Source: Escherichia phage BAU.Micro_ELP-22. Taken from it: DNA of 64,000 nt. Below the pieces are notes generated by a model. That model worked only from the letters and a program-made list of their open reading frames with translations, was not told the DNA's origin and did no database searches. Position numbers and translations under genes: made by a program. Location of the stretch: the sequence record OR699282.2; one strand, given 5' to 3'. Shown in pieces: positions 3,044-30,844 of the stretch. Position 1 is the stretch's first letter; the number at the start of each line of letters is the position of its first letter.

Positions 3044-3060
3044 ATAATGGGACATCACAT

Positions 3061-3176
<116 letters not shown>

Positions 3177-3180
3177 AAAT

Positions 3181-3282
<102 letters not shown>

Positions 3283-16899: not shown

Positions 16900-17321
16900 G
16901 AGGCTATAATAAGATTTGTATTTTTGTATTTTTAGTTTGTGCATTCAATTCGTTTGGTTACTACTGTACAGAAAATAATATTTCATATGGTTTAAATCCT
17001 TTGTGGTTTACAATTTCCAATGTAGCACAAATTGGTATTGCTCTTATGTCTGCACTTATGTTCTGTCCAATTGTCACTATGGATACTGATCATGAAAGGC
17101 TTGGATTTCTCCGTGATACTGGAGACGAACCTTACAGTAGATTGATTGTGTTGTATCCATTTATTGTTATTTTAGGTACTAACATCCAACTTGGGTCATT
17201 ATCTAATAGTGTTACATCAGCAGCTATTGCTATATTTGCATTCACATTTTTTATGGTACACAAATCAGTACTTAATTGGTATATCACAAAAATGGCAGAA
17301 GAAGGTACTAAAAATACTTGA
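16896..17321 (+). CDS. integral membrane protein
   Basis: 141 codons, multiple hydrophobic segments. Confidence 0.55.
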   Translation: MRGYNKICIFVFLVCAFNSFGYYCTENNISYGLNPLWFTISNVAQIGIALMSALMFCPIVTMDTDHERLGFLRDTGDEPYSRLIVLYPFIVILGTNIQLGSLSNSVTSAAIAIFAFTFFMVHKSVLNWYITKMAEEGTKNT

Positions 17322-17346
17322 CATAATTTAGTATGTTATATATAAT
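17318..17346 (+). promoter_or_regulatory. sigma70-like promoter TTGACA-N17-TATAAT
   Basis: TTGACATAATTTAGTATGTTATATATAAT. Confidence 0.55.
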
Positions 17347-17632: not shown

Positions 17633-17706
17633 AAGTATTTGAGATAACAAATAATATGGAGTACAATGTGCTCCTAATTTAATTATCAGCTAAAAAGGAA
17701 AACATT

Positions 17707-18891: not shown

Positions 18892-18912
18892 TTTCGTCAT
18901 TAGGAGATGTAA

Positions 18913-19878
18913 GTGAAAAAGCTTGATTTAAATACAATTGCCGAAGAAGTTCTGGATGAATGTTTTGCTAATGAAGAAGTCAACACACTAGAAGCCTTAG
19001 ATTTCGTTGAAGATAAAGATGAAAATGAAGGTAAAGTACAAAGCAGTTTCAAATATAATATTACACTTAAGCGACCACCAAATGTTTCCAATGAAGATCT
19101 AATTCGTGATATTCAAGCTGGTATCAATGTAAAGAAAAACACTGAACTGTTAGTTCGTTACAATTATGGACTGATTATTGATGTAGCAAGTAAATGTACT
19201 TGTTATATCCCATTTGAAGATAAGATTTCATATGGTGTTGAGGGGTTCATGAGAGCACTAAAAACCTTTGATCTTAATAAGAATGTTAAGTTCATTACCT
19301 ATGCTTCTTCTAGTATTTACATGACAGTCTATAACGAAAGTTCTGACGCTAACTATATGGTACACTTCCCACGTTATATGAGTGTTCATAAGATCAAAGT
19401 AAAAAGATTCTGTCAGGAATATATGCGTAAACATGGTGTTCGCCCAACTCCTGAAATAATCTCAGAGGGTACTGGGATTGAGATTCAGCATGTTAATAAT
19501 TGTTTGTTATTTCAAAGCGAATACACTTCGCTGGATGCACCATTAGACGGTGTTACAGATGGTACATTAGGTGACATTATTCATTCACCTGCTTCTGATT
19601 TTAACCTCAATGTTGATAGTATCCGTGCACCTTTACGTTATGCTATCAATGAACTGACTAACGAATTGAGTACTAAAGAACGTGAGATTATCCAGCGTGT
19701 TCATGGTCTAGGTGAATATGAACCTGAAACGCTTCGTGAGATTGCTGATAATGGTTTTGTTGATGATAATGGAAAATATGTTAAATCCCGTTCATCAATA
19801 CACCGAAAGTACAGTGAAGCTATGCAAAAGCTTAAGAAGTTAGTACTTGCAAAAGGGTACGAATACGAAGATTTCTAA
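18913..19878 (+). CDS. sigma-70 family RNA polymerase sigma factor
   Basis: GTG start after TAGGAG; regions 2 and 4 recognisable: NVKFITYASSSIYMTV, HFPRYM, GVRPTPEIISE, LSTKEREIIQRVHGL..TLREIA. Confidence 0.7.
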   Translation: MKKLDLNTIAEEVLDECFANEEVNTLEALDFVEDKDENEGKVQSSFKYNITLKRPPNVSNEDLIRDIQAGINVKKNTELLVRYNYGLIIDVASKCTCYIPFEDKISYGVEGFMRALKTFDLNKNVKFITYASSSIYMTVYNESSDANYMVHFPRYMSVHKIKVKRFCQEYMRKHGVRPTPEIISEGTGIEIQHVNNCLLFQSEYTSLDAPLDGVTDGTLGDIIHSPASDFNLNVDSIRAPLRYAINELTNELSTKEREIIQRVHGLGEYEPETLREIADNGFVDDNGKYVKSRSSIHRKYSEAMQKLKKLVLAKGYEYEDF

Positions 19879-19884
19879 AGAACA

Positions 19885-19911
19885 AGGGTTGGCTTATGCC
19901 AACCTTTTTTT
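19885..19911 (+). terminator. rho-independent terminator
   Basis: GGTTGGC-TTAT-GCCAACC followed by TTTTTTT. Confidence 0.8.
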
Positions 19912-19949
19912 ATGGGATGAAGTAAAAGTTTGTGATATAATTATCTTGT

Positions 19950-20430
19950 ACAATTCTGTTGGCATGATATTCATGTACCTGATCCACTCGAAAACGTAGA
20001 GGGCAGTTGAGCAGTCCGACAGTGCGAACAGCAAAAGAAACCCGTTAGATGTGGGCATAGTTTGAACCCCTCACGGCAATGCGGCTGTATAAAGAACCAC
20101 GTTAGGATAGCTGGTGGTTCCTTGATAGACATATAAGGATAACACCTTACGAATTATCTAAGGGAGAGTTATCGAATTTTGTACAGGAAAGTTGCGTCCA
20201 AAATTTGAGTACTCACATTAAGTATTTGATTGCATAGATACTTAATGAAGATACACTATGTTTAAAAGTGTAGACCGTCATATGAAACTGAAGTAGAGAG
20301 AAACAGGATGACCCGCTTTCGCACTCGTTATGAGTAATCTTCAATGCAATAGCTCTGATACCATCAGCGTCAAATTTCCCTCCTTGTGGGGGGAAGAAAA
20401 ATCCCTTCCTCAAATCCCGTCAATATTAAA
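19950..20430 (+). ncRNA. candidate structured noncoding RNA
   Basis: ~600 bp gene-free, GC-richer interval between terminator and next promoter; extended -10 TGATATAAT at 19933-19941; G/C hairpins. Confidence 0.3.
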
Positions 20431-20435
20431 AGTCC

Positions 20436-20464
20436 TTGACAGTTATTAATCATTCGCGTAGAAT
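20436..20464 (+). promoter_or_regulatory. sigma70-like promoter TTGACA-N17-TAGAAT
   Basis: Upstream of 20529 operon. Confidence 0.55.
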
Positions 20465-20528
20465 ACGTAGTATTAGAAGCGAACAGACATCTCGAAGAGA
20501 TGGATGATTAACCATTAAGGAATATCCA

Positions 20529-20738
20529 ATGAATTCAGTAATCTTTTTAGTAGTCGCTTTTTCTGTTAATTCCGGTGTACAAATAACCCCAATGAATTCC
20601 ATGAATCAATGTATAGCAGTACGTGATAGTACATACGAACAAGTAAACAAAGATATTTGGATTACAGTTAATAAAGAACAAATGTGGTGTTACAATAGTA
20701 ATACTAACACAAAGCTTATTGTAGGACAAACTCAATGA
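20529..20738 (+). CDS. small secreted protein
   Basis: 69 codons; hydrophobic N-terminus. Confidence 0.5.
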   Translation: MNSVIFLVVAFSVNSGVQITPMNSMNQCIAVRDSTYEQVNKDIWITVNKEQMWCYNSNTNTKLIVGQTQ

Positions 20739-20966: not shown

Positions 20967-21755
20967 ATGAGCACTATAGATGAACTGATTCGACGGAATT
21001 CAAAATATTACCAACCATCAGAAATTGTAGGTAACATTACCAAATCAGAGTTTGGTCCAAATACTCGAAAACTCATTCATGTAATGTCACGTGATGGCTT
21101 TAAATGTGATTGTTGTGGTGAATCAAATGTAGTATTCACTTTACACAAGCACAGTACTAAAGAACGTTATAAATTCAGACCTTATGTACTTAAAGGGAAA
21201 CGCCTTGTACGCATGACGTTAGACCATAATGTACTGGACTGTCTTCAGGGCGGTAATGATAAAGAGAACATGACTGCACTGTGTGAAGATTGTAACGCAT
21301 TACGCCAGCATAAGTTTGCTGAATACAGTGAGTTTAAACACTGGTATCATAACGCGGATCGTTCAATCGAGCCTGACGTTAACTACTGCTTCATTGAGTA
21401 CATTAAGAATGCCAAAGATACATACATTCTTAAATCAATGTCACCTATTACCGTGTTTCCTGAGAACCTATTCACTACATTAAAGAATAGTTTTATTGTA
21501 GGTGATATTGATGCATTCAAGTATTTTGACAAAGGTGCAAAACATTTTGAAATTCAATGTCTTAGTACTGCACTATGTGAACTCATTAAAATTTACATAA
21601 AAGAGTATTTGGGTATTGACAATGTACGTGTACCAGAGTATACTTTTTCTATTGAATTCGATTGTGAATCAATCAAAGAGTTTGGAATTCTTTTCAATAA
21701 ACAAATAGAACTTGCAATTCAAAACGAAATCAAGTACTATACTACTAACATTTAA
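20967..21755 (+). CDS. HNH endonuclease-like protein
   Basis: CDCCGES zinc-ribbon Cys plus LDHNVLDCLQGGNDKENMTALCEDCNALRQH (HNH core). Confidence 0.6.
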   Translation: MSTIDELIRRNSKYYQPSEIVGNITKSEFGPNTRKLIHVMSRDGFKCDCCGESNVVFTLHKHSTKERYKFRPYVLKGKRLVRMTLDHNVLDCLQGGNDKENMTALCEDCNALRQHKFAEYSEFKHWYHNADRSIEPDVNYCFIEYIKNAKDTYILKSMSPITVFPENLFTTLKNSFIVGDIDAFKYFDKGAKHFEIQCLSTALCELIKIYIKEYLGIDNVRVPEYTFSIEFDCESIKEFGILFNKQIELAIQNEIKYYTTNI

Positions 21756-30729: not shown

Positions 30730-30844
30730 TTTAACTTTGGGACAACCATTCTTATTATGATATAATGTTTTATGTCATTCGATATAAATGACAACGGAAC
30801 TATAAATATTATAGTAAAATTTATCTCTTATAGGAGTTATAAAA

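What the first reader, a model, noticed from the sequence alone, without database searches (positions are those of the whole stretch)
18913..19878. Phage-encoded sigma-70 family sigma factor
The 321-aa product has recognisable region 2 (NVKFITYASSSIYMTV; HFPRYM), a GVRPTPEIISE segment paralleling RpoD GREPTPEELAE, and a region 4 helix-turn-helix (LSTKEREIIQRVHGL..ETLREIA). A full sigma-70-type factor next to a DenV homologue and T4-like tRNAs is an unusual combination and may drive a dedicated promoter class not visible among the TTGACT/TATAAT promoters.
Basis: partly seen in the sequence, partly recalled or inferred. Interest (0 to 1): 0.6.

Follow-up and report, generated by a model that had tools for sequence, protein, structure and literature searches.

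The report
Known jumbo-phage sigma factor gene
The ORF really is a sigma-70-family transcription factor, but it is the already-annotated, experimentally untested sigma gene shared by all Rak2/121Q-like jumbo phages, and here it probably steers the host RNA polymerase to a second class of phage promoters.

Summary
The 321-aa ORF at 18913-19878 (+) is real. It has a GTG start, an AGGAG ribosome-binding site and an intrinsic terminator. It is a sigma-70-family protein by Pfam, NCBIfam, PHROG, PDB sequence search and AlphaFold/Foldseek.

The window is a 121Q/PBECO4-type jumbo coliphage (99.4% identical to SP27 and JP4). The gene is already annotated there as "RNA polymerase sigma factor", and published comparisons call it a hallmark of RNAP-less "group 2" jumbo phages. 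So the identification is correct but not new or unusual.

- The protein forms a discrete phage clade.
- The clade lacks the sigma70 W433/W434 pair and the sigma70 residues that read -12 and the extended -10.
- It has an 8-residue insertion in the region 4.2 helix-turn-helix.
- The gene lies behind a consensus early promoter.

The genome has a second promoter class, tG(G/A)GACAa-N13-TGnTATAAT. It sits before replication genes, tRNAs and the gp55-like late sigma gene. Its upstream box differs between phage clades along with the sigma 4.2 recognition helix. Whether this sigma reads that class is inferred, not shown.

In passing: a covariation-supported, roughly 450-nt multi-copy structured RNA lies directly downstream of the sigma gene.

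The parts
17318..17346 (+). Consensus sigma70-type early promoter (TTGACA-17 nt-TATAAT, 12/12) heading the operon that ends with the sigma gene. A weaker second one (TTGAGA-17-TACAAT) lies at 17639-17667.
   Evidence: No class-2 or late motif lies between it and the gene. The operon assignment is inferred.
18902..18906 (+). Shine-Dalgarno AGGAG, 6 nt upstream of the GTG start
   Evidence: sequence read directly
18913..19878 (+). Sigma-70-family sigma factor CDS, 321 aa, GTG start, stop codon included
   Evidence: The orthologue is annotated in JP4 as CDS0143 'RNA polymerase sigma factor'.
18913..19062 (+). Acidic N-terminal extension (aa 1-50, net charge -9). It is mostly disordered in the model but carries the clade-conserved motif (K)LxLxxIxxEVLDExF.
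   Evidence: A region-1.1-like role is inferred only.
19084..19353 (+). Partial region 1.2 plus regions 2.1-2.4 (aa 58-147). F127, T129, Y130, A131 and P153 are invariant in the clade. The sigma70 W433/W434, Q437, T440 and R441 equivalents are S, S, M, Y and N.
19372..19590 (+). Region 3 (aa 154-226), the best Pfam match. The sigma70 H455/E458 equivalents, which read the extended -10, are Y and V.
19606..19851 (+). Region 4 (aa 232-313) with the helix-turn-helix. The recognition helix is SRSSIHRKY. By my manual alignment R293 corresponds to sigma70 R584, H297 to R588 and R298 to Q589.
19750..19785 (+). Insertion inside the region 4.2 helix-turn-helix turn. The marked span is aa 280-291 (NGFVDDNGKYVK); the net insert relative to cellular sigmas is 8 residues. 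The clade motif is G(F/Y)xDxxGKxxxS.
   Evidence: It is modelled as a small hairpin before helix 293-313.
19884..19914 (+). Intrinsic terminator of the sigma operon (AAGGGTTGGCTTATGCCAACCTTT followed by a T-run)
19914..19941 (+). Class-2 promoter (box GGGATG 19914-19919, 16-nt spacer ending in TGA, -10 TATAAT 19936-19941) immediately after the sigma terminator
19948..20423 (+). Structured non-coding RNA candidate driven by that promoter. It is not part of the sigma gene but is syntenic with it in Asteriusvirus and RaK2.
   Evidence: The 5' end is inferred from the -10 position. The nhmmer match spans 19976-20422.
3049..3076 (+). Class-2 promoter (GGGACA-16-TATAAT with TG) just upstream of tRNA-Ser at 3087
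30739..30766 (+). Class-2 promoter (GGGACA-16-TATAAT with TG) upstream of a virion-protein gene

Best explanation
The gene encodes a divergent sigma-70-family factor with a partial region 1.2 and regions 2, 3 and 4. The host sigma70 holoenzyme makes it early in infection from a consensus TTGACA/TATAAT promoter. The protein then binds E. coli core RNA polymerase in place of sigma70.

Its altered region 4.2 carries the recognition helix SRSSIHRKY and an 8-residue insertion in the helix-turn-helix turn. Through this region it directs the polymerase to the phage's second promoter class, tG(G/A)GACAa-N13-TGnTATAAT. That class precedes replication genes, tRNAs, a multi-copy structured RNA and the gp55-like late sigma gene.

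The result would be a cascade: host sigma70, then the phage RpoD-like sigma, then the gp55-like sigma.

Shown here: family membership and domain architecture, the early-type promoter context, the existence, geometry and gene context of the class-2 promoters, and their clade-specific boxes. Inferred: binding to host core, and that this sigma (rather than host sigma70 or another phage factor) reads class 2.
For: **Identity.** all place the protein in the sigma-70 family. An exhaustive HMMER search shows a discrete clade: 15 representatives at E<=1e-30, then a gap from 118 to 88 bits before generic sigmas.

**Early expression.** A 12/12 sigma70 promoter lies at 17318 and a terminator at 19884. 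The JP4 genome has 123 near-consensus sigma70 promoters on the + strand, concentrated in this region.

**Class 2 exists.**
- 17 exact G[AG]GACA-N16-TATAAT sites occur on the + strand, against 0-2 at other spacings and 0 on the - strand.
- A position-weight-matrix scan finds 38 sites on + and 0 on -, against about 0.6 in shuffled sequence.
- TG precedes the -10 in 17 of 19 class-2 sites but only 45 of 173 early sites.
- Sites lie before primase, exonuclease, topoisomerase II, ssb and the gp55-like sigma gene (site 329855, gene 329940).

**The geometry fits a sigma region 4 domain.** The spacing is fixed at 16 nt, and the box keeps the GACA of TTGACA. The sigma keeps the R584 equivalent (R293) but changes the E585, R588 and Q589 equivalents.

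**The box differs by phage clade while the geometry and the -10 stay the same.**
- TG(G/A)GACA in Asteriusvirus and 7t3, where the helix is ..R..HR.
- tTGAACA in RaK2, where the helix is R..HY.
- TGAAAC(G) in CBB, GAP32, Yen9 and XbC2, where the helix is K..SR.

From established knowledge, sigma70 region 4.2 is essentially invariant among these enterobacterial hosts. A clade-specific box therefore points to a phage-encoded reader.

**No competing factor found.** No AsiA or MotA homologue is annotated in JP4, and tblastn with AsiA found nothing.
Against: - The class-2 -10 element is a perfect extended -10 for host sigma70. The phage sigma lacks the sigma70 residues that read TG (H455, E458), -12 (Q437, T440) and the W433 wedge. 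Host sigma70 could therefore fire these promoters unaided.
- The -10 motif is identical across clades whose region 2.4 sequences differ strongly.
- The correlation between box and recognition helix rests on about three independent clades. For 7t3, EJP2, GAP32, Yen9 and XbC2 it rests on single promoters, so it is phylogenetically confounded.
- An unrecognised MotA-like activator would give the same pattern.
- There are no transcriptomic or biochemical data for this phage group.
- The position-weight matrix was iterated on its own hits, so the figure of 38 includes weak sites.
Confidence: 0.5

Rival explanations
1. Class-2 promoters are read by host sigma70 as extended -10 promoters, alone or helped by an unidentified phage activator that binds the G(G/A)GACA box in the way T4 MotA binds its box. 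The phage sigma would then serve a different regulon that has not been recognised.
For: - TGnTATAAT plus a 4/6 match to the -35 hexamer at 16 nt is a strong sigma70 promoter on paper.
- The phage sigma lacks the H455/E458 and Q437/T440 equivalents.
- The -10 element is identical across clades despite a divergent region 2.4.
- T4 middle promoters have the same layout, an extended -10 plus an upstream box (established knowledge).
Against: - The box changes between phage clades that infect hosts with the same sigma70, so a phage-encoded reader is needed.
- No MotA or AsiA is annotated or found.
- k-mer discovery on upstream regions found only three classes: early, class 2 and the late ATAAATA. 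That leaves no obvious orphan class for this sigma.
- The strict 16-nt spacing and the retained GACA fit a sigma region 4 domain better than a MotA-like protein.
Confidence: 0.3
2. The protein is a sigma70 substitute that reads the same TTGACA/TATAAT early promoters. It would keep phage early transcription going while host sigma70 is inhibited or modified.
For: - The best profile matches are RpoD and RpoS.
- The R584 equivalent and the F419, Y430, K426 and N383 equivalents are kept.
- The genome carries a very large number of consensus sigma70 promoters.
Against: - The clade has lost W433/W434 throughout, and in this branch also R436, Q437, T440 and R441.
- In region 4.2 the E585, R586, R588 and Q589 equivalents are changed, and 8 residues are inserted in the helix-turn-helix.
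- No anti-sigma70 factor was identified.
Confidence: 0.12
3. The protein mainly competes for core polymerase as a decoy. It would shut off host transcription by displacing sigma70 without productive promoter recognition of its own.
For: - The N-terminus is acidic and disordered, and the promoter-reading residues are divergent.
- The r2 and r4 Pfam scores are slightly below their cutoffs.
Against: The DNA-facing helices (regions 2.3, 3.0 and 4.2) and the helix-turn-helix insertion are conserved across the whole clade, down to about 30% overall identity. A pure core-binding decoy would not need that.
Confidence: 0.05

Closest known systems
Orthologous sigma genes of Rak2-like (group 2.2) jumbo phages: 121Q gp167, PBECO4, JP4 CDS0143, RaK2 ORF244, CBB_513, GAP32_490, fHe-Yen9-04 g498
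   Same: The protein is the same at 99.4-99.7% identity in 121Q, PBECO4 and Sharanji, and 31-60% in the other genera. The early-region context is the same, and the GTG start is shared with several orthologues. These genes are annotated as RNA polymerase sigma factor, and the Sharanji paper, citing Iyer et al. 2021, calls a phage-encoded RpoD-like sigma a hallmark of the group.
   Different: Nothing essential differs. The window is another isolate of the 121Q/PBECO4 lineage. None of these proteins has been tested experimentally.
E. coli RpoD (sigma70) and RpoS, the group 1 and 2 sigmas
   Same: The order of regions 1.2(part)-2-3-4 matches, with about 25-30% identity over aa 74-279. The region 2.1/2.2 framework, F419, Y430, K426, N383, P453 and R584 equivalents are kept.
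   Different: - There is no region 1.1 or non-conserved region; a short acidic tail takes their place.
- The W433/W434 pair, Q437, T440, R441, H455 and E458 are replaced.
- E585, R586, R588 and Q589 become S, S, H and R.
- Eight residues are inserted in the 4.2 helix-turn-helix.
- Scores fall far below every RpoD or RpoS equivalog cutoff.
Bacillus phage SPO1 gp28, an early-expressed phage sigma that switches host RNAP to middle promoters
   Same: Functional analogy only. Both are early gene products of the sigma-70 family proposed to redirect host core to a second promoter class, ahead of a separate late sigma system. This rests on established knowledge (SPO1's switch to phage-encoded sigmas is noted in the PMC13401047 abstract).
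   Different: No specific sequence relationship was detected. SPO1 middle promoters (AGGAGA / TTTnTTT, from established knowledge) differ in both elements, whereas class 2 here keeps TATAAT. The role of the protein here is untested.
T4 MotA/AsiA middle-promoter system and T4 gp55 late sigma
   Same: Class-2 promoters resemble T4 middle promoters in layout: a good or extended -10 plus a phage-specific upstream box. The phage also has a gp55-like late sigma and ATAAATA late motifs.
   Different: No MotA or AsiA was found (and the JP4 annotation tables). The box sits at the canonical -35 distance with fixed spacing. The protein studied here is a full sigma with regions 2 to 4, not a gp55-type minimal sigma.

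Membership tests
Sigma-70 family (Pfam Sigma70_r2/r3/r4; NCBIfam TIGR02937) | Region 2 domain (core binding and -10 recognition) | tested here: met
   Pfam r2 gives E=7.1e-5 and 23.0 bits, just under the cutoff of 24. TIGR02393 aligns aa 79-283 at E=6e-25. The AlphaFold helices 60-147 are confident. N84, A92, D103, G108, G111, A115, Y130 and A131 are conserved with cellular sigmas.
Sigma-70 family (Pfam Sigma70_r2/r3/r4; NCBIfam TIGR02937) | Region 3 domain | tested here: met
   Pfam r3 gives E=2e-9 and 37.8 bits, above the cutoff of 25.3.
Sigma-70 family (Pfam Sigma70_r2/r3/r4; NCBIfam TIGR02937) | Region 4 helix-turn-helix | tested here: met
   Pfam r4 gives E=3.1e-5 and 23.8 bits against a cutoff of 24.1, matching only the first half of the profile (positions 4-28 of 50) because of the 8-residue insertion. 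The model shows helices 254-264, 274-279 and 293-313. TIGR02937 scores above its cutoff over aa 80-309.
Sigma-70 family (Pfam Sigma70_r2/r3/r4; NCBIfam TIGR02937) | Overall fold like solved sigma factors | tested here: met
   The top 50 Foldseek PDB hits are all sigma factors (RpoS 5ipl_F at 1.5e-9, then SigA and RpoD) at probability 1.0. TM-scores are low (about 0.35) because the domain arrangement in the free model differs.
Sigma-70 family (Pfam Sigma70_r2/r3/r4; NCBIfam TIGR02937) | Binds core RNA polymerase and confers promoter-specific initiation | not testable with these tools
   This needs biochemistry. No published experiment was found for this clade.
Group 1/2 (RpoD/RpoS-type) sigma factors | Signature region 2.3-2.4 residues for TATAAT (sigma70 Y430, W433, W434, Q437, T440, R441) | tested here: not met
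   Only Y430 is kept, as Y130. W433 and W434 become S and S, Q437 becomes M, T440 becomes Y and R441 becomes N. The WW pair is absent from the whole clade.
Group 1/2 (RpoD/RpoS-type) sigma factors | Region 4.2 recognition helix (T/S)RERIRQIE reading TTGACA | tested here: not met
   The helix is SRSSIHRKY. The R584 equivalent is kept, E585, R586, R588 and Q589 are changed, and 8 residues are inserted in the turn.
Group 1/2 (RpoD/RpoS-type) sigma factors | Score above the NCBIfam RpoD or RpoS equivalog cutoffs | tested here: not met
   88.2 bits against 354 for RpoD_Cterm, and 70.5 against 378.7 for rpoS_proteo.
Rak2-like jumbo-phage sigma clade (PHROG 351 subset) | Full-length similarity to the phage clade, separated from cellular sigmas | tested here: met
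   PHROG 351 gives E=2.6e-60. tblastn finds 72 phage records covering at least 80% of the query. There is a score gap from 118 to 88 bits in the exhaustive search. Shared clade motifs are the N-terminal LxLxxIxxEVLDExF and the helix-turn-helix insertion.
T4 gp55-type late sigma | Minimal region-2-only sigma; homologue of gp55 | tested here: not met
   This protein has regions 2, 3 and 4. The phage encodes a separate 'sigma factor for late transcription' (JP4 CDS0688).

The most novel reading that the evidence does not exclude
Its re-tooled region 4.2 has R at the sigma70 Q589 position, H or S at the R588 position tracking G or A in the box, and an 8-residue helix-turn-helix insertion.

On this reading it is the middle step of a three-sigma cascade. 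It also drives a previously undescribed multi-copy structured RNA of about 450 nt. One copy of that RNA is kept directly downstream of the sigma gene in both Asteriusvirus and RaK2, which hints at a functional link between the sigma and the RNA.
Probability: 0.4. Interest if true: 0.6.

Novelty: already known. Interest (0 to 1): 0.3.

Why it matters
The finding as stated adds nothing new. The gene is annotated in dozens of GenBank records and discussed in comparative papers.

What remains open is what this sigma does, and the results here make that directly testable. No member of the clade has been studied biochemically, although these phages are being developed for therapy against E. coli, Klebsiella, Salmonella and Erwinia.

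The analysis gives a concrete hypothesis: a defined promoter class with a clade-specific box, specific recognition-helix residues to swap, and a predicted early-to-middle-to-late sigma cascade.

As a by-product it turns up an unannotated, strongly covarying structured RNA family. That family may be the more novel object in this window.

Tried and rejected
- **Pfam on neighbouring proteins.** Pfam found no family at E<=0.01 for the four upstream co-operonic ORFs or the three downstream ORFs. The operon partners therefore gave no functional clue. The 'HslV' label one record gives a neighbouring gene and the 'HNH endonuclease' label for 20967-21755 were not reproduced by Pfam.
- **Rfam on the non-coding region.** Rfam found nothing credible at gathering threshold over the whole window, at E<=1 over 19870-20540, or at E<=10 on eight homologous loci. 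The RNA is not a described family.
- **AsiA search.** tblastn of T4 AsiA against the JP4 genome gave no hit better than E=0.86. MotA could not be searched because I could not supply its sequence.
- **More class-2 promoters in other phages.** Scanning 13-kb flanks of the Munch, EJP2 and XbC2 sigma genes found mostly early TTGAC-type promoters. The box assignments for those phages therefore rest on one site each.
- **Automatic alignment of sigma70 region 4.2.** MAFFT misplaced the sigma70 recognition helix because of the insertion. The residue equivalences in region 4.2 are my manual alignment of SRSSIHRKYSEAMQKLKK to TRERIRQIEAKALRKLRH.
- **Replication-origin reading of the non-coding element.** I considered that it might be an R-loop replication origin of the T4 oriF type, a middle promoter plus a downstream element. 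I set this aside as the primary reading because of the base-pair covariation. It is not excluded as an additional role.
Full report

Yes. The ORF listing and translate give a single long ORF at 18913-19878 on the + strand. It is 321 aa with a GTG start, and the opposite strand is riddled with stops. AGGAG lies 6 nt upstream of the GTG. A 10-bp stem followed by a T-run lies 6 nt after the stop codon.

**2. Is it a sigma-70 family protein?**

Yes. Pfam gives:
- Sigma70_r3 above the gathering score (E=2e-9).
- Sigma70_r4 at E=3e-5, within about one bit of its cutoff.
- Sigma70_r2 at E=7e-5, also within about one bit of its cutoff.

Other evidence agrees:
- NCBIfam RpoD_Cterm aligns aa 79-283 at 6e-25, and the superfamily model TIGR02937 is above its cutoff.
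- PHROG 351 'RNA polymerase sigma factor' gives 2.6e-60.
- The 58 PDB sequence matches (E<=0.001) are all sigma factors; the best are RpoD, SigA, SigB and RpoS.
- An AlphaFold2 model (mean pLDDT 71) has confident sigma2, sigma3 and sigma4 domains and a disordered N-terminus.
- Its top 50 Foldseek matches in the PDB are all sigma factors at probability 1.0.

**3. What genome is this, and is the gene known?**

Megablast puts the window in the 121Q/PBECO4 (Asteriusvirus) lineage of jumbo coliphages. It is 99.4% identical to SP27 and JP4 and 98-98.5% to 121Q and PBECO4. The same protein at 99.4-99.7% identity is annotated 'RNA polymerase sigma factor' or 'RpoD' in PBECO4, G17, Sharanji, 121Q (gp167), slurp01 and JP4. 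Homologues at 31-60% identity occur in RaK2, K64-1, Munch, EJP2, CBB, GAP32, BF, fHe-Yen9-04 and XbC2.

The literature already treats it as a defining feature:
- Iyer et al. [quoted passage not shown]
- The Sharanji paper repeats this (PMC11895373).
- The CBB paper lists the regions 2/3/4 domains of CBB_513 (PMC5259590).

I found no experimental work on any member. The DenV gene and the tRNAs are 19 kb and more than 11 kb away.

**4. What is distinctive about the protein?**

An exhaustive HMMER search of 1.84 billion representatives shows a discrete clade. There are 15 representatives at E<=1e-30, followed by a drop from 118 to 88 bits into generic sigma-70s. I aligned the clade with cellular sigmas and within itself. 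Four features stand out.

(a) There is no region 1.1 or non-conserved region. Instead there is a 50-residue acidic tail with net charge -9. It carries a conserved LxLxxIxxEVLDExF motif.

(b) The region 2.1/2.2 framework is kept, as are F419, K426, F427, T429, Y430, A431, P453 and N383 (sigma70 numbering). These include residues that, from established structural work on sigma70/sigmaA, form the pockets for the flipped -11A and -7T.

(c) The W433/W434 pair is absent in the whole clade. In this branch R436, Q437, T440, R441, H455 and E458 are also replaced.

(d) In region 4.2 an 8-residue insertion, G(F/Y)xDxxGKxxxS, sits in the helix-turn-helix turn. The recognition helix reads SRSSIHRKY against sigma70 TRERIRQIE. 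R584 is kept. E585 and R586 become S and S, R588 becomes H, and Q589 becomes R. That last residue, R298, is nearly invariant in the clade.

The protein therefore fails the group 1/2 signature tests while clearly belonging to the family.

**5. Context and expression**

The gene is the last of five + strand ORFs. The operon runs from a 12/12 consensus sigma70 promoter at 17318-17346 to the terminator at 19884. Perfect or near-perfect TTGACA-17-TATAAT promoters are very frequent in this part of the genome, with 123 on the + strand of JP4, mostly between 30 and 170 kb. The gene is thus set up as an early gene read by the host holoenzyme. This is an inference from the promoters.

**6. Is there a dedicated promoter class?**

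I assembled the full genome of JP4 and analysed its upstream regions. Three motif classes appear.

- **Early:** TTGACA-17-TATAAT.
- **Late:** ATAAATA, found in 20 upstream regions against 1.2 expected. This fits the separate gp55-like 'sigma factor for late transcription'.
- **Class 2:** tG(G/A)GACAa-N13-TG(a/c)TATAAT.

Class 2 is sharply defined:
- 17 exact G[AG]GACA sites lie exactly 16 nt from a TATAAT, against 0-2 at other spacings and none on the - strand.
- A position-weight-matrix scan finds 38 sites on + and 0 on -, against about 0.6 in shuffled genomes.
- 17 of 19 class-2 sites carry the extended -10 TG, against 45 of 173 early promoters.
- Sites lie before primase, exonuclease, topoisomerase II, ssb, the DNA polymerase region and the gp55-like sigma gene itself.
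- In the window they lie at 3049-3076 (before tRNA-Ser), at 19914-19941 (immediately after the sigma terminator) and at 30739-30766.

CBB and GAP32 were already reported to have the same architecture with the box TGAAACG. One CBB site also lies just upstream of its gp55-like gene. In RaK2 I find tTGAACA(a) with TGATATAAT before ssb and primase and directly after its sigma gene.

**7. Who reads class 2?**

This is the inferential step. The points in favour of the phage sigma are:
- The box sits at the canonical -35 distance with fixed spacing.
- The box retains the GACA (or AAC) core, and the sigma retains the R584 equivalent.
- The box differs between phage clades: TG(G/A)GACA, tTGAACA and TGAAAC(G).
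- The region 4.2 recognition helix differs between the same clades: R..HR, R..HY and K..SR.
- No MotA or AsiA is annotated or detectable.

The points against are:
- The class-2 -10 is an ideal extended -10 for host sigma70, and the phage sigma lacks the sigma70 residues that read TG and -12.
- The -10 is identical across clades despite a divergent region 2.4.
- The covariation rests on about three independent lineages, several of them represented by a single promoter.
- An unknown activator would mimic the pattern.

I put the specific assignment at about 0.5. The main rival, host sigma70 with or without an activator, gets about 0.3. A sigma70 substitute reading early promoters gets about 0.12, and a pure decoy about 0.05.

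**8. Comparison with known systems**

The protein is a member of the sigma-70 family and of the Rak2-like phage sigma clade. It is not a group 1/2 sigma by signature residues or equivalog scores, and it is not a gp55-type sigma.

Functionally, the closest analogue is SPO1 gp28, an early-made phage sigma that switches host RNAP to middle promoters ahead of a separate late system. The promoter layout resembles T4 middle promoters, but no MotA/AsiA was detected and the box sits at the -35 position.

**9. Noticed in passing: a structured RNA**

The 520-bp 'empty' stretch after the sigma terminator is not empty.
- It begins with the class-2 promoter at 19914-19941.
- JP4 holds four paralogues in all, this copy included (70-80% identity to it), each directly behind a class-2 promoter.
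- Homologues occur in 61 phage records, a set of Rak2-like jumbo-phage genera that largely matches the one carrying the sigma, at 2-5 places (mostly 3-5) per genome, almost always unannotated.
- They are about 70% identical at the DNA level between phages whose sigma proteins are about 35% identical.

An 11-sequence alignment folds into 77 pairs in 16 helices, and 42 of the pairs show compensatory double changes. In the pair-count test 95.7% of cells are paired, against 36-46% when the 3' partners are slid. There are 131 double-change cells against 10-21 in the slid controls, and 0 of 500 shuffles reach the observed values.

Rfam 15 has no match. A profile search finds the RaK2 copy at 191374-191817 (E=1.8e-35), again directly after its sigma gene and promoter. 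This is a well-supported and apparently undescribed structured RNA family. Its function is unknown, and any link to the sigma is speculation.

**10. Verdict**

The finding is already known and is ordinary for this phage group, so interest is low to moderate.

The value added here is a testable model for the sigma's promoter class and the by-product RNA family.

Noticed in passing
window 19948-20423 (+); paralogues at JP4 201449-201916, 255768-256299 and 334635-335096; RaK2 191374-191817; loci L012-L019: An unannotated structured RNA family of about 450 nt lies directly downstream of the sigma gene. Every copy examined but one (pEa_SNUABM_49) sits behind a class-2 promoter. There are four copies in JP4. 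Homologues occur in 61 Rak2-like jumbo-phage records. The fold has 77 predicted pairs, 42 of them with compensatory changes. In the pair-count test 95.7% of cells are paired, against about 44% in slid controls. It has no Rfam match.
   Followed up: yes
alignment A3 columns ~485-520; JP4 copies C and D and Salmonella phage 7t3 (L016): Three copies of that RNA carry an inserted terminator-like hairpin (AGAGACTTnATTGTCTC followed by a T-run) between the CAGCGTCAAG block and the last conserved ~55-nt block (CCCCTGCGGGGGG...CAAATCyCGTCAr). The element may therefore be two modules, or it may end at different points in different copies.
   Followed up: no
window 3049-3076 (+), then tRNA-Ser at 3087-3176: A class-2 promoter (GGGACA-16-TATAAT with TG) ends about 10 nt before tRNA-Ser. 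At least part of the tRNA cluster therefore appears to be driven by the second promoter class, not the early one.
   Followed up: partly
window 3181-3259 (+): Rfam calls a weak tRNA here (29.3 bits against a cutoff of 29) that ARAGORN did not report. JP4 annotates a tRNA-Arg immediately after a tRNA-Ser in its tRNA cluster, which is probably the same gene.
   Followed up: no
L004 (JP4 122792-142905 and 142906-163019): The JP4 GenBank record contains an exact 20,114-bp tandem duplication full of small ORFs. It is probably the terminal repeat assembled internally. I excluded it from the promoter counts.
   Followed up: partly
window ~46,500-61,300 (-), by offset to JP4 102887-117634: A block of about a dozen paralogous genes of roughly 400 aa lies on the minus strand. 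JP4 annotates them 'regulator of chromosome condensation' (RCC1-like repeats). This block interrupts the otherwise + strand early region.
   Followed up: no
window 18913; L020, L022, L023, L025: The sigma gene uses a GTG start in this phage and in Munch, CBB, GAP32 and fHe-Yen9-04. This may be a conserved means of keeping translation low.
   Followed up: no
window 20967-21755 (+): This 262-aa ORF is annotated 'HNH endonuclease' in several related records, but it has no Pfam match at E<=0.01.
   Followed up: no
JP4 329855 (class-2 promoter) and gene 329940-330779 (L008): The gp55-like late sigma gene sits directly behind a class-2 promoter in JP4. The CBB paper reported the same for CBB_244. 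This supports a conserved three-step sigma cascade.
   Followed up: partly
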